From Escherichia phage FCWL1, in sequence record PP558327: a stretch of 49,336 nucleotides of DNA, one strand, 5' to 3'. Shown one piece after another: positions 894-48,271 of the stretch (the stretch's first letter is position 1; the number at the start of each line of letters is the position of its first letter). The position numbers and the translations under genes are program-made. The notes under the pieces are model-generated. The model searched no databases. It worked only from the letters and a program-made list of their open reading frames with translations, and was not told the origin of the DNA.

Positions 894-941
894 GTGATTT
901 GGCATAATTACCTCATCGAAACGAGATTGAGGAAAAACAAA

Positions 942-1127
942 ATGTCACGTCGCATCACTAAAGACCTTAAAGTCCTGAACAAAGAAAACGTAGTTAAAAT
1001 TCTGGTTATATGGGGATACAGCGAAGAATCAGCAAGACAAAAGGTCGAGGCTGGTTATGACCTGGCTATCAAGGCAATGCCTAACGACGACGCTAAAGGT
1101 ATTGCAAATTACGTATCTTTCTTCTAA
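942..1127 (+). CDS. hypothetical small protein (61 aa)
   Basis: ATG at 942 preceded by GAGGAAAAAC RBS and the conserved leader CATCGAAACGAG; track ORF 894 start is upstream of the RBS. Confidence 0.45.
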   Translation: MSRRITKDLKVLNKENVVKILVIWGYSEESARQKVEAGYDLAIKAMPNDDAKGIANYVSFF

Positions 1128-2187: not shown

Positions 2188-2214
2188 AACCCCATCGACA
2201 ACGAACGAGGACGA

Positions 2215-2258
2215 TAGCCACGAATTGCTAAAACGTCGATGGGGTGATTTGATATAGT
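2215..2258 (+). promoter_or_regulatory. promoter cassette (TAGCCA-CGAAT-TGCTA, hairpin, TATAGT), second of tandem pair
   Basis: Same architecture as 2145-2187; conserved leader CATCGACAACGAAGAGAG then ATG 2291. Confidence 0.5.
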
Positions 2259-2290
2259 TACCTCATCGACAACGAAGAGAGAAAATCTAA

Positions 2291-2779
2291 ATGAAAATCA
2301 AATTAATTTGCACTGGCGGTTACAAGGGATTTACCCGAGATCTGGAAGCGGACCCTATCGTGGTTGATGCGGTGAAGTGTGATTCCAGTACTGGAGGCTA
2401 CCGTGTTAAGGTTGACGATCTGGTAAAAGCTGGCGTGTACGATCTTGATTATGGGCTTTCGGTTAGCCCGGTATTTGGTCCGGCCGACTTCAACGAGAAA
2501 GACGGAACGATGTTCTTTTTTGAGTGGGAAGTGCAAGCGAACGTCAAGCCTCGTAAGGTTCGACTTCTCAACAATGGCGGCTACCCGATGAGACCAGGTT
2601 ATGAGAATCGCACGTTCCCAGTTATTGTGGACTTCACCGAAATCACTAACAAACTGGTCTACGTCAGCAATGAGCATTTCCAGGCTGTAGGATTCACTGG
2701 CGGTATGCATAAAGAAGCGCTGTGCTTCGTTCGAGAAGAAATGCACGGTTACTATTCTGAGTGCGAGTTAGTTTACTAA
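2291..2779 (+). CDS. hypothetical protein (162 aa)
   Basis: ORF downstream of tandem promoter cassettes. Confidence 0.55.
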   Translation: MKIKLICTGGYKGFTRDLEADPIVVDAVKCDSSTGGYRVKVDDLVKAGVYDLDYGLSVSPVFGPADFNEKDGTMFFFEWEVQANVKPRKVRLLNNGGYPMRPGYENRTFPVIVDFTEITNKLVYVSNEHFQAVGFTGGMHKEALCFVREEMHGYYSECELVY

Positions 2780-7312: not shown

Positions 7313-7515
7313 TGGCTAATTTACCGAAGAAAGGAGATCAGGTTCGATGCATCACTTCACGTAATGGCGATGCTTTCTCAGCTGGGTGCTTGTATGACGT
7401 TGAAAAAGTCAGTAAAGCAAAGAGGCTCGTATATGTGTACGGCGACGATGGAAACCTGCATGAGATTAATTACCCGCAGGATATGACTAAGGGTCAATTT
7501 GAAATTAATGATTGA
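7312..7515 (+). CDS. small protein of the dispersed KxxC...Y(G)DDG repeat-domain family
   Basis: VRCITSRNGDAFSAGCLYDV...YVYGDDGNLH matches pattern seen at 4167, 41137 and 45012. Confidence 0.45.
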   Translation: MANLPKKGDQVRCITSRNGDAFSAGCLYDVEKVSKAKRLVYVYGDDGNLHEINYPQDMTKGQFEIND

Positions 7516-7677
7516 CCTACGTCCCTGAGCGGTGATAGTATTAATCCCGTAGACAAACTAGGCGCAATGAAGCGCAACGCGTGAGACGATTCTCACACTT
7601 CCAGCTAACAAGCTCGGTTGCATAGTGGTTAAGCAACGCCGCAGACCCGTAAGCGGCAACAATTCAAGAGGATTGCA

Positions 7678-7842
7678 TGATGCAAAACACCAAAGACGAA
7701 TCAGTAAAAATTGAAATTAAAGTAACTCGCAACGGTGAAACCACTCGTTATAAAAAACGATTAAATCCGGGAGAGGCTGTTATTGGTCGAATTGCTGGCG
7801 TTATGATTAAGGCGCAGGAAGATGAAGCGATTCAAGGTTAAA
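7678..7842 (+). CDS. possible small protein (54 aa)
   Basis: ATG preceded by AAGAGGATTGC RBS; below track length threshold. Confidence 0.3.
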
Positions 7843-8008
7843 TTAATTATTCGAAAGATGGGGATGTTTTGCCAGTCGTGCAAACAATCTTTCGAAACAG
7901 AATTATCTGCAACCAGTCAGGCAGAAGCCATCACGAAAGCAAAAAAACTTTCCGGCGCTAACCTTGACACTCACAAAATAAATATTGAATTAATCAAGGA
8001 GATTTAAC

Positions 8009-10470: not shown

Positions 10471-10494
10471 GGCTGTCAATTGACGGCCTTTTTT
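10471..10494 (+). terminator. hairpin + T-tract between terminase and portal
   Basis: GGCTGTCAATTGACGGCC hairpin followed by TTTTTT. Confidence 0.45.
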
Positions 10495-10506
10495 ATTGGA
10501 GGAAAC

Positions 10507-11790
10507 ATGAAAATTGTTAAACATGATGGATATAACGATATCTTTAACGGCGGCGCGGACGGTTCACCAAAGCCATTTTTTATGTCAGACGCATCATATC
10601 ACGTAGGATCTTTCTATAACGATAACGCAACAGCGAAGCGAATTGTAGATGTGATCCCGGAAGAAATGGTGACGGCTGGATTTAAAATTTCAGGCGTTAA
10701 GGATGAAAAAGAGTTCAAATCTCTGTGGGATAGTTACAAAATTGATCCTAGCTTGGTTGATGCTCTTTGCTGGGCGCGCTTATACGGTGGGGCGGCTATT
10801 GTAGCAATCATTAATGACAACAGAATGCTAACCAGTCCAGTTAAGCCTGGGGCTAAACTTGAAGGTGTGCGTGTTTACGATAGGTTCGCAATTACAATCG
10901 AAAAAAGAGTAACCAATGCGCGATCGCCTCGCTATGGTGAGCCTGAGATCTATAAGGTGTCACCTGGTGACAATATTCAACCTTACTTAATCCACCACAC
11001 AAGAATTTTCATTGCTGATGGTGAGAGAGTTACCCCTCAGATGAGGAAGCAGAATCAGGGGTGGGGTGCTTCAGTTTTGAATAAGTCACTGATTGATGCA
11101 ATCTGCGACTACGACTATTGCGAATCACTTGCGACTCAGATCCTTCGGCGTAAGCAACAGGCGGTATGGAAGGTCAAAGGTCTTGCCGAAATGTGCGATG
11201 ATGACGATGCTCAGTATGCGGCGCGTCTGCGACTTGCTCAGGTTGATGATAACTCCGGCGTAGGCCGCGCGATCGGTATCGATGCTGAGACGGAAGAATA
11301 CGATGTTCTAAACTCTGATATCAGCGGAGTACCTGAGTTCTTATCAAGCAAGATGGATCGTATTGTTTCCCTTTCCGGGATTCATGAGATTATCATCAAA
11401 AATAAGAACGTAGGCGGCGTATCAGCGAGCCAAAACACGGCGCTTGAGACTTTCTATAAGTTGGTAGATCGTAAGCGTGAGGAAGATTACAGGCCGCTTC
11501 TTGAGTTCTTGCTGCCGTTCATTGTTGACGAGCAAGAGTGGTCGATCGAGTTCGAGCCTTTATCTGTTCCGAGCAAGAAAGAGGAATCAGAGATCACGAA
11601 GAATAACGTTGAGTCGGTTACGAAAGCTATCACTGAGCAAATCATCGATCTGGAAGAGGCTCGCGATACGTTGCGCTCTATCGCCCCTGAGTTTAAGCTA
11701 AAGGACGGTAATAACATCAACATTCGCGAACCGGAAGAGCCAACCGAACCGGAGCCGGGATTAGGGGAGAAGTTAGAAGATGAAAATTAA
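10507..11790 (+). CDS. portal protein
   Basis: 427 aa, immediately downstream of terminase; acidic C-terminus; RBS GGAGGA. Confidence 0.8.
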   Translation: MKIVKHDGYNDIFNGGADGSPKPFFMSDASYHVGSFYNDNATAKRIVDVIPEEMVTAGFKISGVKDEKEFKSLWDSYKIDPSLVDALCWARLYGGAAIVAIINDNRMLTSPVKPGAKLEGVRVYDRFAITIEKRVTNARSPRYGEPEIYKVSPGDNIQPYLIHHTRIFIADGERVTPQMRKQNQGWGASVLNKSLIDAICDYDYCESLATQILRRKQQAVWKVKGLAEMCDDDDAQYAARLRLAQVDDNSGVGRAIGIDAETEEYDVLNSDISGVPEFLSSKMDRIVSLSGIHEIIIKNKNVGGVSASQNTALETFYKLVDRKREEDYRPLLEFLLPFIVDEQEWSIEFEPLSVPSKKEESEITKNNVESVTKAITEQIIDLEEARDTLRSIAPEFKLKDGNNINIREPEEPTEPEPGLGEKLEDEN

Positions 11791-14206: not shown

Positions 14207-14974
14207 ATGGCTTACGAAAATTTGTTCTTGCGCCCCGCGTGTCCGGGAAATATTTCTGATACTTCAACCTACAATATTGATGGAGCTTGTGTGGCTCAAG
14301 GTGACATTGGGTTCGGCTCAGCGGTTCAGGTTGTAGGCATCGTTGACGGTGTAAAAGTTGTGGCGGCGCTTCCTGATGGTGGAACTCCTTACGGTATCGC
14401 TTTCCGTTCCCAATATGAACACCTGAGCGGTAAAATCCTTGACGGTGAAGTGTGCAACGTCGTTTCTCACGGTCGCGTATGGACTCTTACTTCTCTTGGT
14501 GAGGCTCCCAGCTTGTTCTCAAAGTTACAGTTTGGGTCTGGTGGAGTTGTTACTGGTGGATCTGGTTCCGCAGGTTGGACATTTGCGGGTGGCTTTGTTA
14601 AGCATGAAGATGGCTACATCATTGAGGTTCAGGTGAAACAAAATGCTTTCATCGCTCCACCGCCACCGCCCCCTGTCGTTCTTGTTGAATCTGCTACAAT
14701 CGCCACTGACAAGGAAAGCCCTCAACCAAACAATGTTACGATCCAGTGTGTAGCTAATGCTCTTCCGGATAATGCAACCGATAAGACTGGTAAATGGTCA
14801 ATCGACGCTACCAATATCGCCACTGTCGATCCGGACTCAGGTCTTGTAACTCCTGTTGGTGGAGAGGTAGTCGGTGATTTCAATATTACCTGGACGGCTA
14901 ACGATGCCAGCAAGACGACGGCAACTATTGCTTATCGCGTAGAAGCAGTGCCAACGCCAGAGGTTGATGCATAA
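14207..14974 (+). CDS. capsid decoration-like protein (paralog B) with poly-Pro linker and C-terminal Ig-like domain
   Basis: N-terminal homology to 13668 product; APPPPPPVVL linker; C-terminal beta-rich domain resembling bacterial Ig-like (Big_2-type) folds. Confidence 0.45.
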   Translation: MAYENLFLRPACPGNISDTSTYNIDGACVAQGDIGFGSAVQVVGIVDGVKVVAALPDGGTPYGIAFRSQYEHLSGKILDGEVCNVVSHGRVWTLTSLGEAPSLFSKLQFGSGGVVTGGSGSAGWTFAGGFVKHEDGYIIEVQVKQNAFIAPPPPPPVVLVESATIATDKESPQPNNVTIQCVANALPDNATDKTGKWSIDATNIATVDPDSGLVTPVGGEVVGDFNITWTANDASKTTATIAYRVEAVPTPEVDA

Positions 14975-32475: not shown

Positions 32476-33981
32476 ATGGCTTTATATCGACGCGGTACTG
32501 CATCAATGGATGCAGACGGAACGGTTCACGGAACCGATACAAAATGGAAAGACCAGCTTGCTCTTATTCGCGTAGGTGCAACTATCGTGTTCCTTGAGCA
32601 ACCAATTAAGCTAGCTGTGATTAGCGATATCGTTAGTGATACAGAATTAAAGGCTATCTCTACTGATGGTCAGACTGCCGATGACGGTAAGTATGTGATC
32701 CTACTTAATGACTCTCTAACCGTTAACGGATTAGCTCAAAACGTCGCCGAGACTCTTCGATACTATCAAAGCAAAGAGACTGAGATTGCGGCAGCTATAG
32801 ACCTGATAAATCAGCTTGATATGAATAAACTTGAGCAAATAGTTGCTGATGTGAATCAGGCGAAATCTGATTCTCAAGCTGCGCAAAATCAGGCTGAATT
32901 AGCGCGTGACGATGCGGTAAGCTCAAAAGATGCGGCTGCGGTAAGTGCTCAAGAAGCAAAAGACGCAGCTAACAGCATCAATGCTGAAAATCTTTTAACT
33001 AAGGATGGCAATTTAGCTGGTCTTGAGGATAAAAAAGAGTCAAGAAAAAATATTGGGTTAGGTGAAAATGATGCTGTTAACTTTCTTGCTATTAACACCA
33101 CTGGCGCTATAGGTGCAGGAAGGAATTCATGGGACGGTTCTAGCTGGGGTAGTCAGTCCATATTGTCATCATTGATGATTATGTCACCTGATGGAATATC
33201 TACGCCAGGTATTTACGTCAGAAAAGAACGTAGCGATAATGGTTATGCTGGGGCTTTATTATTTTATGAGGGGGCAAACTACTTCGAGACTAACAATAGA
33301 TTCAGAGCTAATCAGTTTTTATGCCAGAAAACATCTATGGGTTACAACCAGATGTGGTCTGCTTCATGCTTCCAGGGTAATGCTTACACCGCTGATAGTG
33401 GTGCTGAAAACTATCAATCACTTATTGCTGGATCGTGTGGCACCAGAGGTCAGGGATACGTTGGCGGCGTAGCATTTGGCATGATGACTACGGGTAATCC
33501 TGAATGGCCCAGGGCACAAATATCAGTAGGCACTCAAGATAGGGATGGAGCAGGCAATATTGGTCTGCAAATGCATTTCAGGTTTATGGCTTCAGGGCAA
33601 ATATCTTACGCTGGACCGCAAGGGGCTGGAAGTTTCCAACAGGTTCCGGCATCTGACAGAAATATAAAGCACGGCATAAAGGATGATGAATCAAGCATTG
33701 CATACAACAACATAAAATCAATGAGATTTAGGAACTTTATATTTAACGATGATGAGCAAGAAAGGGTAAGGAGAGGTGTTATAGCTCAGGAGATAGAAGA
33801 GATCGACAATCTATATGTTAAGAGAAGGGTGTATGAGAGCCACGAGCTAAACGGGCCAAAAGTTGAAAGGCTTGAGCTTGATACAACTCCTTTATTGCTT
33901 GACACTATGAGAGCTTTACAGGATACAATAAAGAAAGTTGAAGAGTTACAAGAAGAGATAAAAATGTTGAAGTCCAAATGA
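32476..33981 (+). CDS. side tail fibre with C-terminal intramolecular chaperone (peptidase S74-like) domain
   Basis: C-terminal ASDRNIKHGIKD...IAQEIEEI... coiled-coil matches auto-cleaving chaperone domains of tail fibres/endosialidases; start placed after terminator (track ORF 32275 over-extended across ssb). Confidence 0.65.
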   Translation: MALYRRGTASMDADGTVHGTDTKWKDQLALIRVGATIVFLEQPIKLAVISDIVSDTELKAISTDGQTADDGKYVILLNDSLTVNGLAQNVAETLRYYQSKETEIAAAIDLINQLDMNKLEQIVADVNQAKSDSQAAQNQAELARDDAVSSKDAAAVSAQEAKDAANSINAENLLTKDGNLAGLEDKKESRKNIGLGENDAVNFLAINTTGAIGAGRNSWDGSSWGSQSILSSLMIMSPDGISTPGIYVRKERSDNGYAGALLFYEGANYFETNNRFRANQFLCQKTSMGYNQMWSASCFQGNAYTADSGAENYQSLIAGSCGTRGQGYVGGVAFGMMTTGNPEWPRAQISVGTQDRDGAGNIGLQMHFRFMASGQISYAGPQGAGSFQQVPASDRNIKHGIKDDESSIAYNNIKSMRFRNFIFNDDEQERVRRGVIAQEIEEIDNLYVKRRVYESHELNGPKVERLELDTTPLLLDTMRALQDTIKKVEELQEEIKMLKSK

Positions 33982-34081: not shown

Positions 34082-35002
34082 ATGATGTTTCAGAAAGAGG
34101 ACGTTTTGCCGTACATGAAGGGGTTATGGCGCGAGGCTTTCCAATCAATCTGCGGATTGCCGAATGATGTTTTTAATAAGAAACACCAACCTTGCCCTAA
34201 CTGCGGGGGTAAGGACCGCTTTCGCTGGACTGATAACCTTAACACTCCGGGCGACGGCGGTGCGATCTGCAACTCATGCGGTAACGACTCTGGAGTCGGT
34301 TGGTTGATTAAATTAACTGGTATGCCGTACAGCGAATGTATAAATATCCTGGGAAGATTTCTCGGCAAGGTTCCGCAGGAATACATTGTCAAGGTCAACA
34401 AAAAAGCGCGAAGAACTCCGGTAGCTGGCGTCAATGTTATGATGGCAGAACACGAGGCAGTGATGAAAGTTATGGAGCGCACAGAGAAGCGCATAAACAC
34501 ACCTCTAAGCATGTTTGAGTCGCTACCTACTGAATCATTCGACGTTGGCGTAAAACGTCGAGAGGATGGCGGCGAGAGTGTATTTCACACCATACCATGT
34601 CAACTTGTACACGAGGACGGTCTTGATGAAGAGTTTTGCAATATTTTGATTATTGATGAGGAGGGTAGGGAGTCATTTTATGCAAAGAAATACACAAGTT
34701 GCTCGGTTGCCGTGACTGGTAAAACTGAAAAAGCGATCTACTTATGCCTTAATTGGATTGATGCTCAGCATATTGCATTTCACACAAAGCAAGAGGTATG
34801 GGCCTGCTTCACTCCTGAAAATCTAGAAATGGTTGCGTACAGATACAAGGGAGATCGGGAGGTAAGGGTGGCGTGCGAACCATCTGATAAAGAAACTTTA
34901 TACATGGCAGACGACAGACAATTAAAAATAATCATCCCGAATCAGGGAGGATACCGCTCAGGAATGCAAGCTAAGTTATTCTCAGCAAGTGATCTACTAT
35001 AA
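34082..35002 (+). CDS. primase-type zinc-ribbon protein (putative DNA primase)
   Basis: CPNCGGKDRFRW...GDGGAICNSCG Zn-ribbon typical of phage primase N-termini; start codon uncertain (hairpin directly upstream, no SD). Confidence 0.5.
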   Translation: MMFQKEDVLPYMKGLWREAFQSICGLPNDVFNKKHQPCPNCGGKDRFRWTDNLNTPGDGGAICNSCGNDSGVGWLIKLTGMPYSECINILGRFLGKVPQEYIVKVNKKARRTPVAGVNVMMAEHEAVMKVMERTEKRINTPLSMFESLPTESFDVGVKRREDGGESVFHTIPCQLVHEDGLDEEFCNILIIDEEGRESFYAKKYTSCSVAVTGKTEKAIYLCLNWIDAQHIAFHTKQEVWACFTPENLEMVAYRYKGDREVRVACEPSDKETLYMADDRQLKIIIPNQGGYRSGMQAKLFSASDLL

Positions 35003-38123: not shown

Positions 38124-38837
38124 ATGAAAGACTTTAATGATATCGAAACTATCGACTTTGCAGAAACTGGTTGCTCATTCACTCGCGAAGCAATAGCATC
38201 AGGCGGTTATTATCAGGCATTGAAAACGCCAACCTGCAAAGAGATTTCAGGGCGTCGATACAAGGGGACAAATACCCCTGACGCTGTTCGTGATTTATGG
38301 TCAACCCCGCGCGAGGTTATCGCATACCTTGAGGGTCGTTACGGAAAATATGATCTAGACGCTGCGGCAAGCGAAGAAAATAAAGTTTGCGAGAAGTTTT
38401 ATTCCCAGGAAACAAACTGCTTAAAACGTTGGTGGGGTAAAAATAAGCACGTATGGTTAAATCCTCCTTATAGTCGACCTGATATATTCGTCAAGAAGGC
38501 GATCGAGCAAATGGAGCACAACAATCAGATTGATATTCTGTTGCCTGCCGATAATTCCACAGCGTGGTTTACTGAGGCGAGACAGAACGCGGCTGAGATT
38601 ATCTGGATTGAAGCTGACTTGACTGAAGATATCGACGGTAACGAGTACGCCAGATCTGGTCGCCTGGCTTTCATATCCGGTGAAACTGGAAAGGCGGTTG
38701 ACGGCAATAACAAGGGTTCGGTAATTTTCATAATGCGCGAACTTAAAGAGGGTGAGACACAGCAAACTCACTATATCCCAATCACAAGCATTTGCCCTTC
38801 GGTGAAAAACAAGCGCGCAAAAGTGAGGAAAGTATGA
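38124..38837 (+). CDS. dam: DNA N6-adenine methyltransferase (phage Dam family)
   Basis: Catalytic NPPY motif (VWLNPPYSRPDIF) and conserved LWSTPREV N-terminal motif. Confidence 0.75.
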   Translation: MKDFNDIETIDFAETGCSFTREAIASGGYYQALKTPTCKEISGRRYKGTNTPDAVRDLWSTPREVIAYLEGRYGKYDLDAAASEENKVCEKFYSQETNCLKRWWGKNKHVWLNPPYSRPDIFVKKAIEQMEHNNQIDILLPADNSTAWFTEARQNAAEIIWIEADLTEDIDGNEYARSGRLAFISGETGKAVDGNNKGSVIFIMRELKEGETQQTHYIPITSICPSVKNKRAKVRKV

Positions 38838-42536: not shown

Positions 42537-42551
42537 GCCTCCTTTTCTTTT
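42520..42551 (+). terminator. terminator hairpin (AGGAGG...CCTCCT) + T-tract after lysis cassette
   Basis: Stem-loop containing spanin stop codon, followed by TTTTCTTTT. Confidence 0.5.
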
Positions 42552-42595
42552 GCGACAAGGAGGGGGAGTTACTCCTTCACGTAAAAAGGTACAAA

Positions 42596-42638
42596 TAGCA
42601 CTTTTTGTTAAAACACCCGATCTCGCATCGGGTATATT
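42596..42638 (+). promoter_or_regulatory. promoter cassette (TAGCA-CTTTT-TGTTA, hairpin, TATATT)
   Basis: 22-bp spacer with CCCGATCTCGCATCGGG hairpin; leader CATCGAAACGAAACG. Confidence 0.5.
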
Positions 42639-42672
42639 TGTTTCATCGAAACGAAACGACCTGAAGGAAAAC

Positions 42673-42891
42673 ATCACGGCTAACAAATTTTTAGTAGTTC
42701 GCGTTTACAATCACTCAAACGGTACTAGCAGTGAGATTCCTACTCTTTACAGTAAAGCTGATGGGTGGACCGAAGAATCAGCGGTAGCTAACGAGAAGAA
42801 GGTTGCTGAGATGTACGGTGACACTTGCGAGTTTGAAGTTCGAGAATATGCAAAACTCACTAACGAGAGTTACATGTGGGCAGATGCATAA
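42673..42891 (+). CDS. hypothetical protein with apparent non-AUG start (ATC/ACG) or start-codon mutation
   Basis: Conserved cassette and GAAGGA SD present but the codon at the expected start position is ATC-ACG; ORF open to 42891. Confidence 0.3.
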   Translation: MTANKFLVVRVYNHSNGTSSEIPTLYSKADGWTEESAVANEKKVAEMYGDTCEFEVREYAKLTNESYMWADA

Positions 42892-42927
42892 AGATTATGC
42901 TCGCTTTCGTTACTGGCCCTCATTGAA

Positions 42928-43362
42928 GTGAGTAACAGACTCAACAACCCTTGCATGCTGCTTCTTCTAGATCTGTTCATATTCTGCGAAGGTTACGACA
43001 AATACACTCGACAGCACATAGCGAAATTTATATACGCCCACAAGGAAAGTGAGCGATTTGCTAAGGCTGCTGGAATGACTCGCCGTGAATTTACAAGCGC
43101 GCTATCTAAGGAGTTTTGCGCTCGTTGCGTGACTGAGGGTTACTTAGATCGCAAGGATGGAGTTTACTGGTGCAAGGGAAAGATTAAGCGCCCGGTAATG
43201 ATGAAGCTGATGTGTATTGATGGCTACAACAATCGGTATACGTGGGAAATGATGCACATTGGAGAGATGAGTGATGAAGATTTGTTTGGCGAACGTAGAA
43301 ACATTGATAGATCGGAACGTCGAATTGTGCGCAAGGCTCCAGCTTACGAAAGAAGAATTTGA
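42928..43362 (+). CDS. hypothetical protein (144 aa)
   Basis: GTG-initiated ORF; basic C-terminus. Confidence 0.4.
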   Translation: MSNRLNNPCMLLLLDLFIFCEGYDKYTRQHIAKFIYAHKESERFAKAAGMTRREFTSALSKEFCARCVTEGYLDRKDGVYWCKGKIKRPVMMKLMCIDGYNNRYTWEMMHIGEMSDEDLFGERRNIDRSERRIVRKAPAYERRI

Positions 43363-44935
43363 ATCAATGTTTAATATTAAGCCAAAACTGAATTACCAAC
43401 AGATTATTGAGATCGCCAATAGCACTGGAGTTAATCCGGTGGCGATCGCAATTCGTGAAAACAGCTATGGTGACTCAGTTTCATTTTGGCAAGATCCGAT
43501 CGATATCAATAGCGGCAACGATAAGTTCCCTCTGATTTCGTTAGGTGGCGATAACCTGGTATTCGAATATGCAAAAGCAAAAGCTGAATCAGTCCAGTTC
43601 CCGGTTTCATCCGCGTATGCTCATTTTATAGGTTGCATCTCAGCCGCGATGCTCGGGAAGTTTTGGGTGCAATATCACGGAGAGGAACAGCCGACCGCGC
43701 TTTACATGGTAATCAGCCAGCCACCATCAACAGGTAAGTCCGCGATTAACTCAGCGGCGATTACACCTATGCGTGCGGAGATTCAGCGACTGAATGAAGA
43801 GCGCAAAAAGGAACGTATTCGTTTAACCAGTCAGCTACGCCAGGTTGAGAAGGAAATCAAGAATGATCCTAAAGGAAACACGACTGCGGCACTATGCGAG
43901 GACAAAGAAAAACTGGAAGAGAAGATCAAAAAGATGGCTGATATTGTTTTTGCTGTATCAGATCCTACACCTGAAGGTCTTGCGAAAGTAGCCGCTGTTC
44001 AGGGCCACTTTTCCGTAATTTCTGATGAGGCAACGGCAATCAATACATTGCTCGGTCTTACGTATGGAGGTTCAGATAAGAAATCTAACAGTGAGCTTAT
44101 TCTTAAGGCGTGGGATAAAAACCATATGGAGGTCGCTCGCTCCAATCAGGACAACAACTTGTCTCTTTGCCCGGTTGGCTCGATCTGCGTAATTGCGCAG
44201 GATGAAACAATCAAAGGTATCATGGACGCAGGCCAACGAGGTATCGGTGTATCTGAGCGCTTCCTGTTAGTTCGCGAGGAACCGCTTTTAGGTACTCGTA
44301 TTCTTTGTGATGAAAATGGTGATGCATTGTATAAAGAAGTCGATCGAGGACTGGTTAGCAAATATTACAGACTCGTTCACAACATCATGAAGGAGGAAAA
44401 CGTTGTTCTCTCTGTAAGCCGTAATGCTATGCGTGAATTAAACCTTGCGCGTCAGGCGATGGAACCGGATTTCGCCGCAGGTGGGAAATACTCTCACTCA
44501 ATGCTACGCGGTCATCTCGGCAAGTTCGATAAGCACGCCTTGCGTATTGCTTCAGTTCTCCACACGATCAAGAATTGGGAGGGTGAATCACCGAACCGTT
44601 CCAACCGTGAGATTGACCTTGAAACAATGCAGGAAGCAATCATGATCTTCAATGAGCTTTCCAGGACTTATCTGTCGTCTGCCAGCGCTGCCGGGTATGC
44701 TGGTGATGAGGCTGAATCTCGTAAGCTGATTGATGTTATCACTGAGATCGCGAAGAAAAACAAAGGCCGCGCACCTATTCATAGCATCGTTGCAAAGTGC
44801 CGGAACGTTACGCCTTTCAACGGTCAACAGAAAGTATCTGAGCGAATCGATAGTCTTCTTATCACGCTCGAAGAGATGAACTACACTTGCCGGATTGATG
44901 ATATTGTTTTCATTAATCCTCGGCTGATGGGTTAA
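43271..44935 (+). CDS. large protein with deviant P-loop (QPPSTGKS), possible NTPase
   Basis: 554 aa; Walker A-like STGKS and hydrophobic-Asp Walker B-like IVFAVSD; start may be the internal ATG near 43367. Confidence 0.4.
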   Translation: MMKICLANVETLIDRNVELCARLQLTKEEFESMFNIKPKLNYQQIIEIANSTGVNPVAIAIRENSYGDSVSFWQDPIDINSGNDKFPLISLGGDNLVFEYAKAKAESVQFPVSSAYAHFIGCISAAMLGKFWVQYHGEEQPTALYMVISQPPSTGKSAINSAAITPMRAEIQRLNEERKKERIRLTSQLRQVEKEIKNDPKGNTTAALCEDKEKLEEKIKKMADIVFAVSDPTPEGLAKVAAVQGHFSVISDEATAINTLLGLTYGGSDKKSNSELILKAWDKNHMEVARSNQDNNLSLCPVGSICVIAQDETIKGIMDAGQRGIGVSERFLLVREEPLLGTRILCDENGDALYKEVDRGLVSKYYRLVHNIMKEENVVLSVSRNAMRELNLARQAMEPDFAAGGKYSHSMLRGHLGKFDKHALRIASVLHTIKNWEGESPNRSNREIDLETMQEAIMIFNELSRTYLSSASAAGYAGDEAESRKLIDVITEIAKKNKGRAPIHSIVAKCRNVTPFNGQQKVSERIDSLLITLEEMNYTCRIDDIVFINPRLMG

Positions 44936-46347: not shown

Positions 46348-46503
46348 TTTATATTCACACTTTCTATACTGGCAAATTTAACAGCGTAAAAAATGTTCGC
46401 GTTTACGATAGTCACCAAAAAGCAATGATGCAGAAAGTAGTTCTAGGTGGAACAATCAAGGAGTGCCAAGTAATTTCCGAGTACTGATATTCCCCCTAAC
46501 CAG

Positions 46504-46875
46504 ATGCTTAAACAATTCGTAGACCTGGACTTCTCAGCAAGCACAGCAATCCAGACTGACGAGAAAGAGAACGTAGCGATCGAGAACATTGCGCGCAAGA
46601 TTTACAACAAGCAAGAGAAGGCAGTGAGAGCCGCTCTAAGCGCTTATTACGGTGTAAGTGATGCAATGGAGTGCGTGAACCGAGTAACGCGCGTGGCGGA
46701 CCATTCTGGCGCGTCTCGTTTCGTAGATAACGATACTGGAGAGATGATAATCCAGCTTAACAATCCATCAATGCGCACTGAACTTGGCAATATTGCATTG
46801 TGGGGTGTGGCTAACTACTCAATCACCGTCAACTCCTGCATTGCGGGTCGCGTCAAGGAGGCATTATATGAGTGA
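46504..46875 (+). CDS. hypothetical protein (123 aa)
   Basis: ORF; weak resemblance to 46027 product. Confidence 0.4.
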   Translation: MLKQFVDLDFSASTAIQTDEKENVAIENIARKIYNKQEKAVRAALSAYYGVSDAMECVNRVTRVADHSGASRFVDNDTGEMIIQLNNPSMRTELGNIALWGVANYSITVNSCIAGRVKEALYE

Positions 46876-47068
46876 TAATATTTACCGCGTGGTTGCGATC
46901 TCACGCAGGACGCAAAAGAGCGTAGTTGCCTACATGGGAAATGGCGCAATTGAGGCAACAGACGCATTCGAGCTACTGAAGAATAACGAAGGATTTATGA
47001 ACACGTTCCGCGTTAGACTTGAGCGTCTTGAACCTGTTATCATTGATGAAGCGAGAAAGCTATCCTGA
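46868..47068 (+). CDS. hypothetical protein (66 aa)
   Basis: ATG overlapping upstream stop. Confidence 0.35.
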   Translation: MSDNIYRVVAISRRTQKSVVAYMGNGAIEATDAFELLKNNEGFMNTFRVRLERLEPVIIDEARKLS

Positions 47069-47127
47069 GGTGATTGCCTCGTTTTCTGTTGATGGGAGAA
47101 CTATAGCAGCCCTCCCGCATTTTCGTT

Positions 47128-47142
47128 TAGCAAAAAGTGCTA
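47128..47142. promoter_or_regulatory. palindrome TAGCA-AAAAG-TGCTA abutting ATG 47144
   Basis: Same sequence as site at 105-119. Confidence 0.4.
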
Positions 47143-47329: not shown

Positions 47330-47357
47330 TTACTGGCCTGTTAAACCGATCGAGTTT

Positions 47358-47372
47358 TAACAAAAAATGCTA
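47358..47372. promoter_or_regulatory. palindrome TAACA-AAAAA-TGCTA containing ATG 47367
   Basis: Start codon lies inside the palindrome. Confidence 0.35.
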
Positions 47373-47726
47373 TCAGCAATCGCTTTGAAAAATCCACGAG
47401 GATATAAGGAACGTATCAGCTTCGTTTTGGCAGACTTGCCGCCCAGCTTGTTTTGCTGTGCAGAGTACCCGTCAGGCAGGCTTACAGGTTTTCTCTCGGG
47501 CATGACAAAATCGATGGAACCAAAATTTGAATGTGCCGTGCAATGCATTAGCGTTAGCACCGACAGCTTCACGAATCAATCAGTGTATGAGATCTACCTT
47601 ATTGATGGTGGGTACTTCGCTACTGACAATCAGCAAAATCAGATCGGCGTTTTCCGCTCAATGAATGGATGGGATCGCTTCCTGACCAATAACGGGCAGA
47701 CGGTATTCAAAGAGGTAACGAAATGA
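47367..47726 (+). CDS. hypothetical protein (119 aa)
   Basis: ORF; overlaps downstream gene by ATGA. Confidence 0.4.
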   Translation: MLSAIALKNPRGYKERISFVLADLPPSLFCCAEYPSGRLTGFLSGMTKSMEPKFECAVQCISVSTDSFTNQSVYEIYLIDGGYFATDNQQNQIGVFRSMNGWDRFLTNNGQTVFKEVTK

Positions 47727-48271
47727 AATTAATCTGGTCGCTATTTGACGGTTCCGGTCTTGCAGGTCATGAACTGGCTAAGCAAGGTCATAAGGTGATG
47801 TGCTTCAACTTTGACGGAGCCGATCACGGAGATTACGAAAAGTACAATGCCAGAGTGGAGCATCCGAACATTGAGTATGTGAACGTGTTCATTGATGAAA
47901 CGTTCGAACGTGATGCTATCGCTGGCGTGTATGGCAAGCCGGATTTCATTATGGCTTTCCCGCCGTGCACTGACCTGGCTGTTAGTGGTGCGCGACACTT
48001 TGCCAGCAAGCGTGAACGCGATCCGTTATTCCAGGAGAAGGCTGTCGCTAGTGCCCGGATTGCTGCGAACATTGGAGATAGCCTGGGCGTGACTTACATC
48101 ATTGAGAATCCGGTGAGCGCCCTGTCGTCTGCGTGGAGAAAACCAAATCACTCCTTCAATCCCTGGGAGTATGGCGGCTATCTTCCTGAGAATGACTCAC
48201 ACCCCTGGTTCCCGATGTATATTGCGCCGCGAGATGCTTACCCGAAGAAAACTTGTCTTTGGGACCTCTGA
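47723..48271 (+). CDS. truncated DNA cytosine-5 methyltransferase-like protein (182 aa)
   Basis: C5-MTase-like motif I LFDGSGLAG (FxGxG), motif IV-like FPPCTDLAVSG (PC), motif VI-like IIENP (ENV); too short to contain a target-recognition domain. Confidence 0.45.
   Translation: MKLIWSLFDGSGLAGHELAKQGHKVMCFNFDGADHGDYEKYNARVEHPNIEYVNVFIDETFERDAIAGVYGKPDFIMAFPPCTDLAVSGARHFASKRERDPLFQEKAVASARIAANIGDSLGVTYIIENPVSALSSAWRKPNHSFNPWEYGGYLPENDSHPWFPMYIAPRDAYPKKTCLWDL

What the first reader, a model, noticed from the sequence alone, without database searches (positions are those of the whole stretch)
47723..48271. Truncated C5-cytosine methyltransferase-like ORF lacking a target-recognition domain
The 182-aa product carries recognisable C5-MTase catalytic-domain motifs (motif I LFDGSGLAG, PC-type motif IV FPPCTDLAVSG, ENV-type motif VI IIENP) but stops before any TRD or motifs IX/X. 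The PCQ glutamine is replaced by Thr. It could be a degenerate methyltransferase, a SAM-binding protein repurposed for another role (for example SAM depletion or restriction-modification mimicry), or a fragment needing a partner.
Basis: partly seen in the sequence, partly recalled or inferred. Interest (0 to 1): 0.5.

Follow-up and report, generated by a model that had tools for sequence, protein, structure and literature searches.

The report
Frameshift-truncated phage Dcm methyltransferase gene
The 182-aa ORF is a T1-like phage's small Dcm-type cytosine methyltransferase gene cut short by one extra G; the family is already known (it methylates CCWGG and triggers the retron Ec86 defence), so this is an ordinary broken copy rather than a new kind of protein.

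The parts
47723..48271 (+). Truncated dcm ORF (phiD2-2 GP17, WRH07549.1), 182 aa. It carries motif I (F8-D-G-S-G12), catalytic P81-C82 (T83), E128-N-P130 and K175/K176.
   Evidence: It is 100% identical to record OR861627.1 6713-7261 (-).
48261..48263 (+). GGG run containing the one-base insertion (relatives have GG). It shifts the frame after Trp180.
   Evidence: Alignment of phiD2-2, SH2 and AV106. Indel mapping against LeonhardEuler places it at nt 538. Coordinates.
48269..48271 (+). Premature TGA, a stop hidden in the -1 frame of the intact gene (CTC TGA C). It is reached two codons after the insertion.
47357..47513 (-). Orphaned 3' end of dcm: codons for residues about 183-234 (DDFVMPERKPVSLPDGYSAQQNKLGGKSAKTKLIRSLYPRGFFKAIADSIFC*), still open. 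In the native genome it directly follows 48271. In the window it is displaced and inverted because the spacer was not flipped with the gene.
   Evidence: reverse complement of native downstream found at window 47345-47513; repaired product 234 aa; block map; chimeric minus-strand ORF 47357..47572 containing this peptide.
47514..47726 (+). Upstream gene GP18 (70 aa), translationally coupled to dcm by an ATGA overlap and flipped together with it as one block. The 119-aa ORF listed at 47367..47726 is an artefact that extends into the misoriented spacer.
47712..47716 (+). GAGGT ribosome-binding site, 6 nt upstream of the dcm ATG.

Best explanation
The ORF is the 5' 77% of the phage's dcm gene. This gene encodes a compact (about 234 aa) Dcm-like C5-cytosine DNA methyltransferase, conserved in Drexlerviridae and many other enterobacterial phages. 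In the phiD2-2 lineage a single G insertion (GG to GGG) after codon 180 shifts the frame, and translation stops two codons later. The product keeps the SAM-binding motif I, the catalytic Cys82, Glu128 and Lys175/176. It loses the last 54 residues, which form three helices and contain near-invariant family residues (LGGKS.KTK.IRSL.PRGF). I infer that the truncated protein is catalytically dead or unstable, so this phage no longer methylates its roughly 100 CCWGG sites itself. The lesion is a real, recent allele of a lineage that circulates as a laboratory contaminant. The loss is either neutral on lab hosts or advantageous, because the intact enzyme is the trigger that activates the retron Ec86 (Retron-Eco1) abortive-infection system native to E. 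coli B/BL21. Shown here: the frameshift, family membership, fold, recurrence of the allele, and independent lesions in relatives. Inferred: loss of activity and any selective advantage.
For: Identity of the window: it is phiD2-2, and the ORF is GP17 at 100% identity.

The lesion: there is one extra G relative to SH2 and AV106. Removing it gives 234 aa, the same length as AV106, with no other stops.

The tail is constrained. L206-G-G-K-S210, T213, K214, I216-R-S-L219, P221-R-G223 and A227 are at least 90% conserved among close members. P188, R217, P221, R222 and G223 remain conserved at 27% mean identity.

Link to the characterised enzyme: 56% identity over 229 aa (E 1e-88) to KarlJaspers bas06_0055, a 711-bp gene. 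That is the gene type shown to make 5mC at CCWGG, to depend on C82/E128/K175/K176, and to trigger retron Ec86. Escaper phages carried a 1-bp frameshift, a deletion, or upstream mutations in dcm (bioRxiv 10.1101/2023.08.16.553469; cited as established in PMC13376987).

The allele is real: the exact 182-aa product with the same CTTTGGGACC is on 7 contigs, including Logan assemblies of SRR34831173, DRR869217 and SRR35248293, and there is a second NCBI accession.

Lab lineage: a 99.9%-identical phage was isolated from a laboratory sink (PMC13535254).

Independent dcm lesions in other Tunavirus genomes: ADB-2 -C at nt 360, LHE71 +CG at nt 269, IME18 -G at nt 581 (host BL21(DE3)), and vB_SsoS_008 with multiple deletions.
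Against: No experiment shows that the 182-aa product is inactive. It retains every residue mutated in the published catalytic-dead control.

The tail shows no decay, so the event is recent, and selection cannot be separated from drift.

The retron-escape link is circumstantial. The genetic background of the recorded host (E. coli delta rfaD) is unknown, and I found no isolation paper. IME167 was also grown on BL21(DE3) and keeps an intact gene.

The Logan contigs may all derive from one contaminant lineage, so the allele may count as few independent events. The 932-bp L015 contig, which suggests a second genomic background, could be an assembly chimera.

At the sequence level the family does not reach Pfam PF00145's threshold.
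Confidence: 0.8

Rival explanations
1. Sequencing or assembly error: the phage really has an intact 234-aa dcm, and the extra G is a homopolymer miscall in the deposited record.
For: The lesion is a one-base length change in a G run. The tail is perfectly preserved, identical to SH2 over the spacer apart from a T-run difference. No isolation or sequencing-method paper was found.
Against: The identical 182-aa product and the same CTTTGGGACC string are present on 7 contigs from at least 4 separate datasets, with both SRR and DRR prefixes. The run is only 3 bases long. The exact repaired 234-aa sequence is absent from a collection of about 15 billion proteins.
Confidence: 0.05
2. Residual activity through recoding or a split enzyme. 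Either a low-level +1 ribosomal shift at CUC-UGA-C restores the frame, or translation reinitiates at the ATG 11 nt after the stop and makes a 48-aa C-terminal peptide that complements the 182-aa fragment. The precedents are the naturally split M.AquI alpha/beta subunits and fragment complementation of C5-MTases (from my own knowledge, not tested here).
For: A +1 shift at the stop would restore the tail frame exactly. UGA-C is a weak terminator context (own knowledge). An in-frame ATG lies 11 nt downstream and opens a 48-codon tail ORF. The tail remains open in all carriers, including the recombinant L015.
Against: There is no Shine-Dalgarno sequence before that ATG and no stimulatory element before the stop. 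The arrangement is not conserved, since all other relatives have a fused gene or unrelated lesions. The open tail is fully explained by the event being recent.
Confidence: 0.08
3. Neofunctionalised truncated protein. The 182-aa N-terminal domain is retained because it does something else, such as SAM binding or sequestration, DNA binding, or acting as a decoy, while no longer triggering methylation-sensing defences.
For: The start codon, RBS, motif I and catalytic loop are intact. A second allele (P0279, 181 aa, ending ...CLWT) appears to be truncated one residue away and sits on 5 contigs. That could hint at a preferred truncation point.
Against: Other natural lesions fall at codons of about 90, 120 and 194, and one genome has multiple deletions, so there is no common product. 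The P0279 DNA could not be inspected. There is no sequence divergence or adaptation after the frameshift. The lost residues are among the most conserved in the family.
Confidence: 0.05

Closest known systems
Phage K42 / KarlJaspers (Bas06) Dcm, bas06_0055, the trigger of retron Ec86 (Retron-Eco1). Wang et al., bioRxiv 10.1101/2023.08.16.553469; published as Cell Rep 2024 per the reference list in PMC13376987.
   Same: Same family: 56% identity over 229 aa, E 1e-88. Same size class (236 against 234 aa when repaired). Same residue numbering for C82, E128, K175 and K176. Same phage family (Drexlerviridae). Laboratory retron escapers carry a 1-bp frameshift with a premature stop in this gene, which parallels the lesion seen here.
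   Different: The copy here is already frameshifted in the deposited genome and truncated at residue 180 rather than about 150. Different genus (Tunavirus against Hanrivervirus). CCWGG specificity and retron triggering have not been tested for the Tunavirus orthologue.
Intact Tunavirus orthologues: SH2 gp79 (YP_009790614.1), AV106 WPK33300.1 and LeonhardEuler bas13_0055 'Dcm-like C5 cytosine methyltransferase' (phrog_757).
   Same: 94-99% identity. Same locus and neighbours in the native genome (GP18 upstream, the 61-aa genes downstream). Identical motifs.
   Different: They are 234 aa (SH2 is 243 aa because of a T-run change at the very end) and uninterrupted. phiD2-2 has the extra G and stops at 182 aa.
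Canonical C5-cytosine DNA methyltransferases (Pfam PF00145: M.HhaI, M.HaeIII, E. coli Dcm, DNMT3A/B catalytic domains).
   Different: Much smaller (about 234 aa against 320-480 aa), with a very short target-recognition region. PCT replaces PCQ, and ENP replaces ENV. The sequence is too divergent for the Pfam gathering threshold (12.5-13.2 bits against 22) or for profile hits to PDB sequences.
Naturally split C5-MTase M.AquI (alpha and beta subunits). Recalled from the literature, not tested here.
   Same: An N-terminal catalytic fragment and a C-terminal fragment are encoded consecutively in different frames.
   Different: In M.AquI both parts are bona fide conserved genes with their own translation signals. 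Here the split is a unique 1-nt insertion, the tail has no RBS, and all relatives are fused.

Membership tests
C5-cytosine DNA methyltransferase (Pfam PF00145 DNA_methylase) | Profile match at or above the curated gathering score | tested here: not met
   13.2 bits (E 0.058) for the 182-aa ORF and 12.5 bits for the repaired 234 aa, against a cut-off of 22. Only 1 of 39 diverse family members hits at E<0.01. NCBIfam gives no hit.
C5-cytosine DNA methyltransferase (Pfam PF00145 DNA_methylase) | Motif I (FxGxG), motif IV Pro-Cys nucleophile and motif VI ENV-type glutamate | tested here: met
   F8-D-G10-S-G12, P81-C82 (followed by an invariant T83 rather than Q) and E128-N129-P130. All are invariant or nearly so in alignment A2.
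C5-cytosine DNA methyltransferase (Pfam PF00145 DNA_methylase) | C5-MTase three-dimensional fold | tested here: met
C5-cytosine DNA methyltransferase (Pfam PF00145 DNA_methylase) | C-terminal conserved region after the target-recognition segment (equivalent of motifs IX/X) present in the product | tested here: not met
   The window ORF stops at residue 182. The conserved tail (residues 183-234, three helices) is encoded out of frame.
C5-cytosine DNA methyltransferase (Pfam PF00145 DNA_methylase) | Formation of 5-methylcytosine in DNA | not testable with these tools
   Published for the 56%-identical K42 Dcm by LC-MS of msDNA. Not known for this truncated product.
Phage Dcm-like small methyltransferase (phrog_757; K42/KarlJaspers Dcm) | Significant full-family profile or sequence match | tested here: met
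   phrog_757 E 9.7e-67. BLASTP to bas06_0055 E 1e-88 at 56% identity. More than 4,500 homologous clusters.
Phage Dcm-like small methyltransferase (phrog_757; K42/KarlJaspers Dcm) | Complete protein of about 225-250 aa covering the whole profile | tested here: not met
   182 aa, covering profile positions 14-164 of 247. Relatives are 225-250 aa.
Phage Dcm-like small methyltransferase (phrog_757; K42/KarlJaspers Dcm) | Residues shown to be required in K42 Dcm (C82, E128, K175, K176) | tested here: met
   All four are present at the same numbering in the window ORF and conserved in A2 and A3.
Phage Dcm-like small methyltransferase (phrog_757; K42/KarlJaspers Dcm) | CCWGG specificity and activation of retron Ec86 | not testable with these tools
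   Only literature on the K42 enzyme is available. The genome has 100 CCWGG sites against about 50 expected.
Naturally split (two-subunit) C5-MTase, M.AquI type | Separate, translatable second ORF for the C-terminal fragment, conserved as split in relatives | tested here: not met
   The tail has an ATG 11 nt after the stop but no Shine-Dalgarno. About 40 close relatives have a fused gene, and the few disrupted ones have unrelated lesions.

The most novel reading that the evidence does not exclude
The +G allele is a naturally selected 'retron-escape' genotype. On this reading, a T1-like lineage that circulates in laboratories, where BL21(DE3) with its native retron Ec86 is ubiquitous, has shed its own Dcm because the enzyme betrays the phage to methylation-sensing abortive-infection systems. 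The scattered independent dcm lesions in other Tunavirus isolates (ADB-2, LHE71, IME18, vB_SsoS_008, and possibly P0279) would then record the same recurrent arms-race outcome outside the laboratory evolution experiment in which it was first seen.
Probability: 0.3. Interest if true: 0.35.

Novelty: already known. Interest (0 to 1): 0.15.

Why it matters
The practical value is for annotation. GP17 of phiD2-2, currently a 'hypothetical protein', should be labelled a frameshifted dcm (Dcm-like C5-cytosine methyltransferase) pseudogene. It should not be treated as a novel TRD-less methyltransferase. There is one biologically useful point. Phage Dcm is a known trigger of retron Ec86, and loss-of-function frameshifts are the known escape route. 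Natural isolates with broken dcm, including this one, could therefore serve as ready-made isogenic-like controls for retron sensitivity, and they hint that such escape also happens outside the laboratory. The case also shows that this window has been artificially re-oriented gene by gene. Any inference from what lies next to a gene end in it is therefore unsafe.

Tried and rejected
- NCBIfam scan: no hit.
- Literature search for the phiD2-2 isolation paper or the background of the delta-rfaD host: not found. The only mention is a 99.9%-identical lab-sink phage.
Its lesion could therefore only be inferred from the protein end.
- IMG/VR survey (33 loci): no disrupted copies beyond those already seen in GenBank.
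- Programmed frameshifting was considered and rejected as the main explanation. The insertion is unique to this allele and there are no stimulatory signals.
- My first guess, from the break in homology to SH2 at exactly the stop codon, was a downstream replacement or deletion. That was rejected once one search showed the break is an artefact of the window's block-wise strand flipping.

Full report
**What is there**

A GAGGT ribosome-binding site sits 6 nt upstream, and the ATG overlaps the stop of the preceding gene (ATGA).

**What the window is, and a caveat about it**

Megablast and tblastn identify the window as Escherichia phage phiD2-2 (OR861627.1; Drexlerviridae, Tunavirus; 49,337 bp). 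The ORF is its GP17, annotated 'hypothetical protein', at 100% identity.

A whole-genome comparison shows that the window is not collinear with the record. Every minus-strand CDS block of the record is reverse-complemented in place, with block ends coinciding exactly with annotated CDS ends. The intergenic spacers keep their original orientation, and a few pieces are relocated: GP16 to window 894-1127, GP19 to 371-893, and record 7486-8008 across the window ends.

Independent metagenome/SRA contigs are collinear with the GenBank record, not with the window. The window layout is therefore artificial.

The consequence for this finding is that GP18 and GP17 were flipped as one block (window 47514-48271), so the sequence after the stop at 48271 is not what follows the gene in the phage. 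The true downstream 169 nt lie at window 47345-47513 in the opposite orientation.

**Cause of the truncation**

I aligned the native phiD2-2 locus with its closest relatives, SH2 (99.6% DNA identity) and AV106. There is a single difference in length inside the gene: CTTTGGGACC in phiD2-2 against CTTTGGACC in the relatives. The extra G lies in window 48261-48263, and the shifted frame hits TGA 9 nt after the start of that run.

Deleting one G gives an uninterrupted 234-aa protein of the same length as AV106 and LeonhardEuler. The displaced tail still encodes ...TSDDFVMPERKPVSLPDGYSAQQNKLGGKSAKTKLIRSLYPRGFFKAIADSIFC* with no further lesion. In the window this tail is the 3' part of a chimeric minus-strand ORF listed at 47357..47572. 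The 'missing C-terminal fragment' is therefore simply the rest of the same gene.

**The family**

- phrog_757 ('DNA methyltransferase') matches at E 9.7e-67 but only over profile positions 14-164 of 247.
Nearly all are 225-250 aa and cover 97-100% of the query.
- An exhaustive phmmer run finds 937 representatives at 50% clustering.
- tblastn finds the gene in about 1,520 phage records from Escherichia, Klebsiella, Salmonella, Shigella, Campylobacter and other hosts.
- The family is compact and divergent. Pfam PF00145 scores only 12.5-13.2 bits against a cut-off of 22, 1 of 39 diverse members reaches E<0.01, and a family profile finds no significant PDB sequence.
- Motif I (F8-D-G-S-G12), P81-C82-T83 and E128-N-P130 are invariant within the family. 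The PCT is therefore a family trait, not a decayed PCQ.

**What is already known about it**

BASEL phage annotations call this gene 'Dcm-like C5 cytosine methyltransferase'. A preprint on retron Ec86 (bioRxiv 10.1101/2023.08.16.553469) is cited in PMC13376987 as Cell Rep 2024 and as the established mechanism. It reports the following:

- The 711-bp dcm of the KarlJaspers-like phage K42 produces 5mC on the retron msDNA at a CCWGG site.
- A quadruple C82A/E128A/K175A/K176A mutant no longer produces 5mC on the msDNA and no longer triggers the retron.
- Dcm expression activates the Ec86 abortive-infection system, which is native to BL21(DE3).
- All four escaper phages had dcm lesions, including a 1-bp deletion that causes a frameshift and premature stop.
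- 34 of 35 Ec86-sensitive phages encode Dcm.

KarlJaspers bas06_0055 is 711 bp and 56% identical to the repaired phiD2-2 protein over 229 aa (E 1e-88), with the same residue numbering. The window ORF is therefore a broken copy of a known, experimentally characterised gene family.

**Is the frameshift real?**

The exact 182-aa product is encoded on 7 contigs. These include Logan assemblies of SRR34831173, DRR869217 and SRR35248293, all with the same GGG, and it has a second NCBI protein accession.

In the 932-bp SRR35248293 contig, the first 798 nt are identical to phiD2-2. All 22 differences lie in the tail, which there matches the LeonhardEuler/AV106 allele and is still open. This indicates either recombination just 3' of the lesion or a chimeric assembly.

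A phage 99.9% identical to phiD2-2 was isolated from a laboratory sink (PMC13535254). That fits the reputation of T1-like phages as laboratory contaminants (PMC13164509) and explains why the allele turns up in unrelated runs. A one-off sequencing error is therefore unlikely.

**Recurrent loss in relatives**

About 40 close Tunavirus relatives were examined, and most have an intact 702-nt gene. Several carry independent lesions:

| Phage | Lesion |
|---|---|
| ADB-2 | -C at nt 360 (annotated 'potential frameshift') |
| LHE71 | +CG at nt 269 |
| IME18 | -G at nt 581 (propagated on BL21(DE3)) |
| vB_SsoS_008 | four deletions |
| SH2 | +T at nt 694, altering only the last residue and adding ten |

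A further 181-aa allele (P0279, ending ...CLWT) exists on five contigs, but its DNA could not be retrieved. IME167 was also grown on BL21(DE3) and is intact, so the link to retron pressure is suggestive only.

**Likely consequence**

The truncated product keeps motif I, the catalytic loop, E128 and K175/K176. It loses three C-terminal helices (201-205, 211-217, 222-232) that carry many of the most conserved positions in the family. These include LGGKS, TK, IRSL, PRG and A227 at 90% or more among close members, and P188, R217, P221, R222 and G223 across members at 27% mean identity.

In canonical C5-MTases the C-terminal conserved motifs complete the catalytic domain, and N-terminal fragments alone are inactive (established knowledge, not tested here). 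I therefore infer a null or severely impaired enzyme.

The genome has 100 CCWGG sites against 50 +/- 6 expected. It does not avoid the target, and on dcm-negative hosts it would be unmethylated.

Low-level rescue cannot be excluded but has no positive support. The possible routes are a +1 slip at CUC-UGA-C, or reinitiation at the ATG 11 nt downstream, which lacks a Shine-Dalgarno.

**Verdict**

This is a degenerate C5-MTase, but the cause is a trivial 1-nt frameshift in a known gene. It is not a TRD-less or repurposed protein.

Novelty is 'already known'. Interest is low. The only mildly interesting angle is that natural dcm-null alleles mirror laboratory retron escapers.

Noticed in passing
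whole window (block map), e.g. 32476-33981, 34082-35002, 42549-42892, 42955-43362, 43367-44935, 46504-47068, 47514-48271: The window is phiD2-2, but every minus-strand CDS block is reverse-complemented in place, with boundaries matching the annotated CDS ends. Spacers are left in their original orientation, and a few pieces are relocated (GP16 to 894-1127, GP19 to 371-893, record 7486-8008 split across the window ends). Natural contigs match the GenBank layout, so the window is an artificial, strand-normalised sequence. Gene-end contexts in it are unreliable.
   Followed up: yes
window 47367-47726 (+) and 47357-47572 (-): Two listed ORFs (119 aa and 71 aa) are chimeras created by the artificial flipping. 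The first is GP18 (native 70 aa, 47514-47726) extended into the misoriented spacer. The second fuses antisense GP18 sequence to the genuine dcm tail.
   Followed up: yes
L005 (ADB-2), L006 (LHE71), L007 (IME18), L008 (vB_SsoS_008), L002 (SH2): Independent lesions in the orthologous dcm of other Tunavirus genomes: -C at nt 360, +CG at nt 269, -G at nt 581, multiple 6-11-nt deletions, and a +T at nt 694 in SH2 that only remodels the C-terminus. IME18 was propagated on BL21(DE3), the native retron Ec86 strain. IME167 was propagated on the same host and is intact.
   Followed up: partly
protein P0279 (Logan, 5 contigs, longest 47,015 bp): A different dcm allele of 181 aa that ends ...KKTCLWT, one residue from where the phiD2-2 product diverges. 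A 2-nt deletion creating ACC-TGA would explain it, but the DNA could not be retrieved. This may be a mutational hotspot or a coincidence.
   Followed up: partly
whole window; within the ORF at 47974, 48031, 48082, 48162, 48204: CCWGG, the Dcm target, occurs 100 times against 50.3 +/- 6.2 expected from shuffles, so there is no site avoidance. Five of the sites lie inside the 549-nt dcm ORF itself, about 4.5 times the genome average. This is probably a by-product of Pro-Trp and Pro-Gly codons.
   Followed up: no
L015 (SRR35248293 contig, 932 bp), positions 799-932: The first 798 nt are identical to phiD2-2, and then there are 22 mismatches, all in the dcm tail, which switches to a LeonhardEuler/AV106-like allele. 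This is either a recombination breakpoint about 35 nt 3' of the frameshift or an assembly chimera.
   Followed up: partly
window about 38124-38837 (record 46426-47139, GP74): The phage also encodes a Dam-type N6-adenine methyltransferase, annotated in the record, which appears intact. Only the cytosine methyltransferase is broken.
   Followed up: no
window 2214-2294 against record 14759-14838 and 10482-10520: A short sequence of about 40-80 bp matches two places in the record, apparently a repeated intergenic element upstream of GP27 and GP35. I did not examine it.
   Followed up: no
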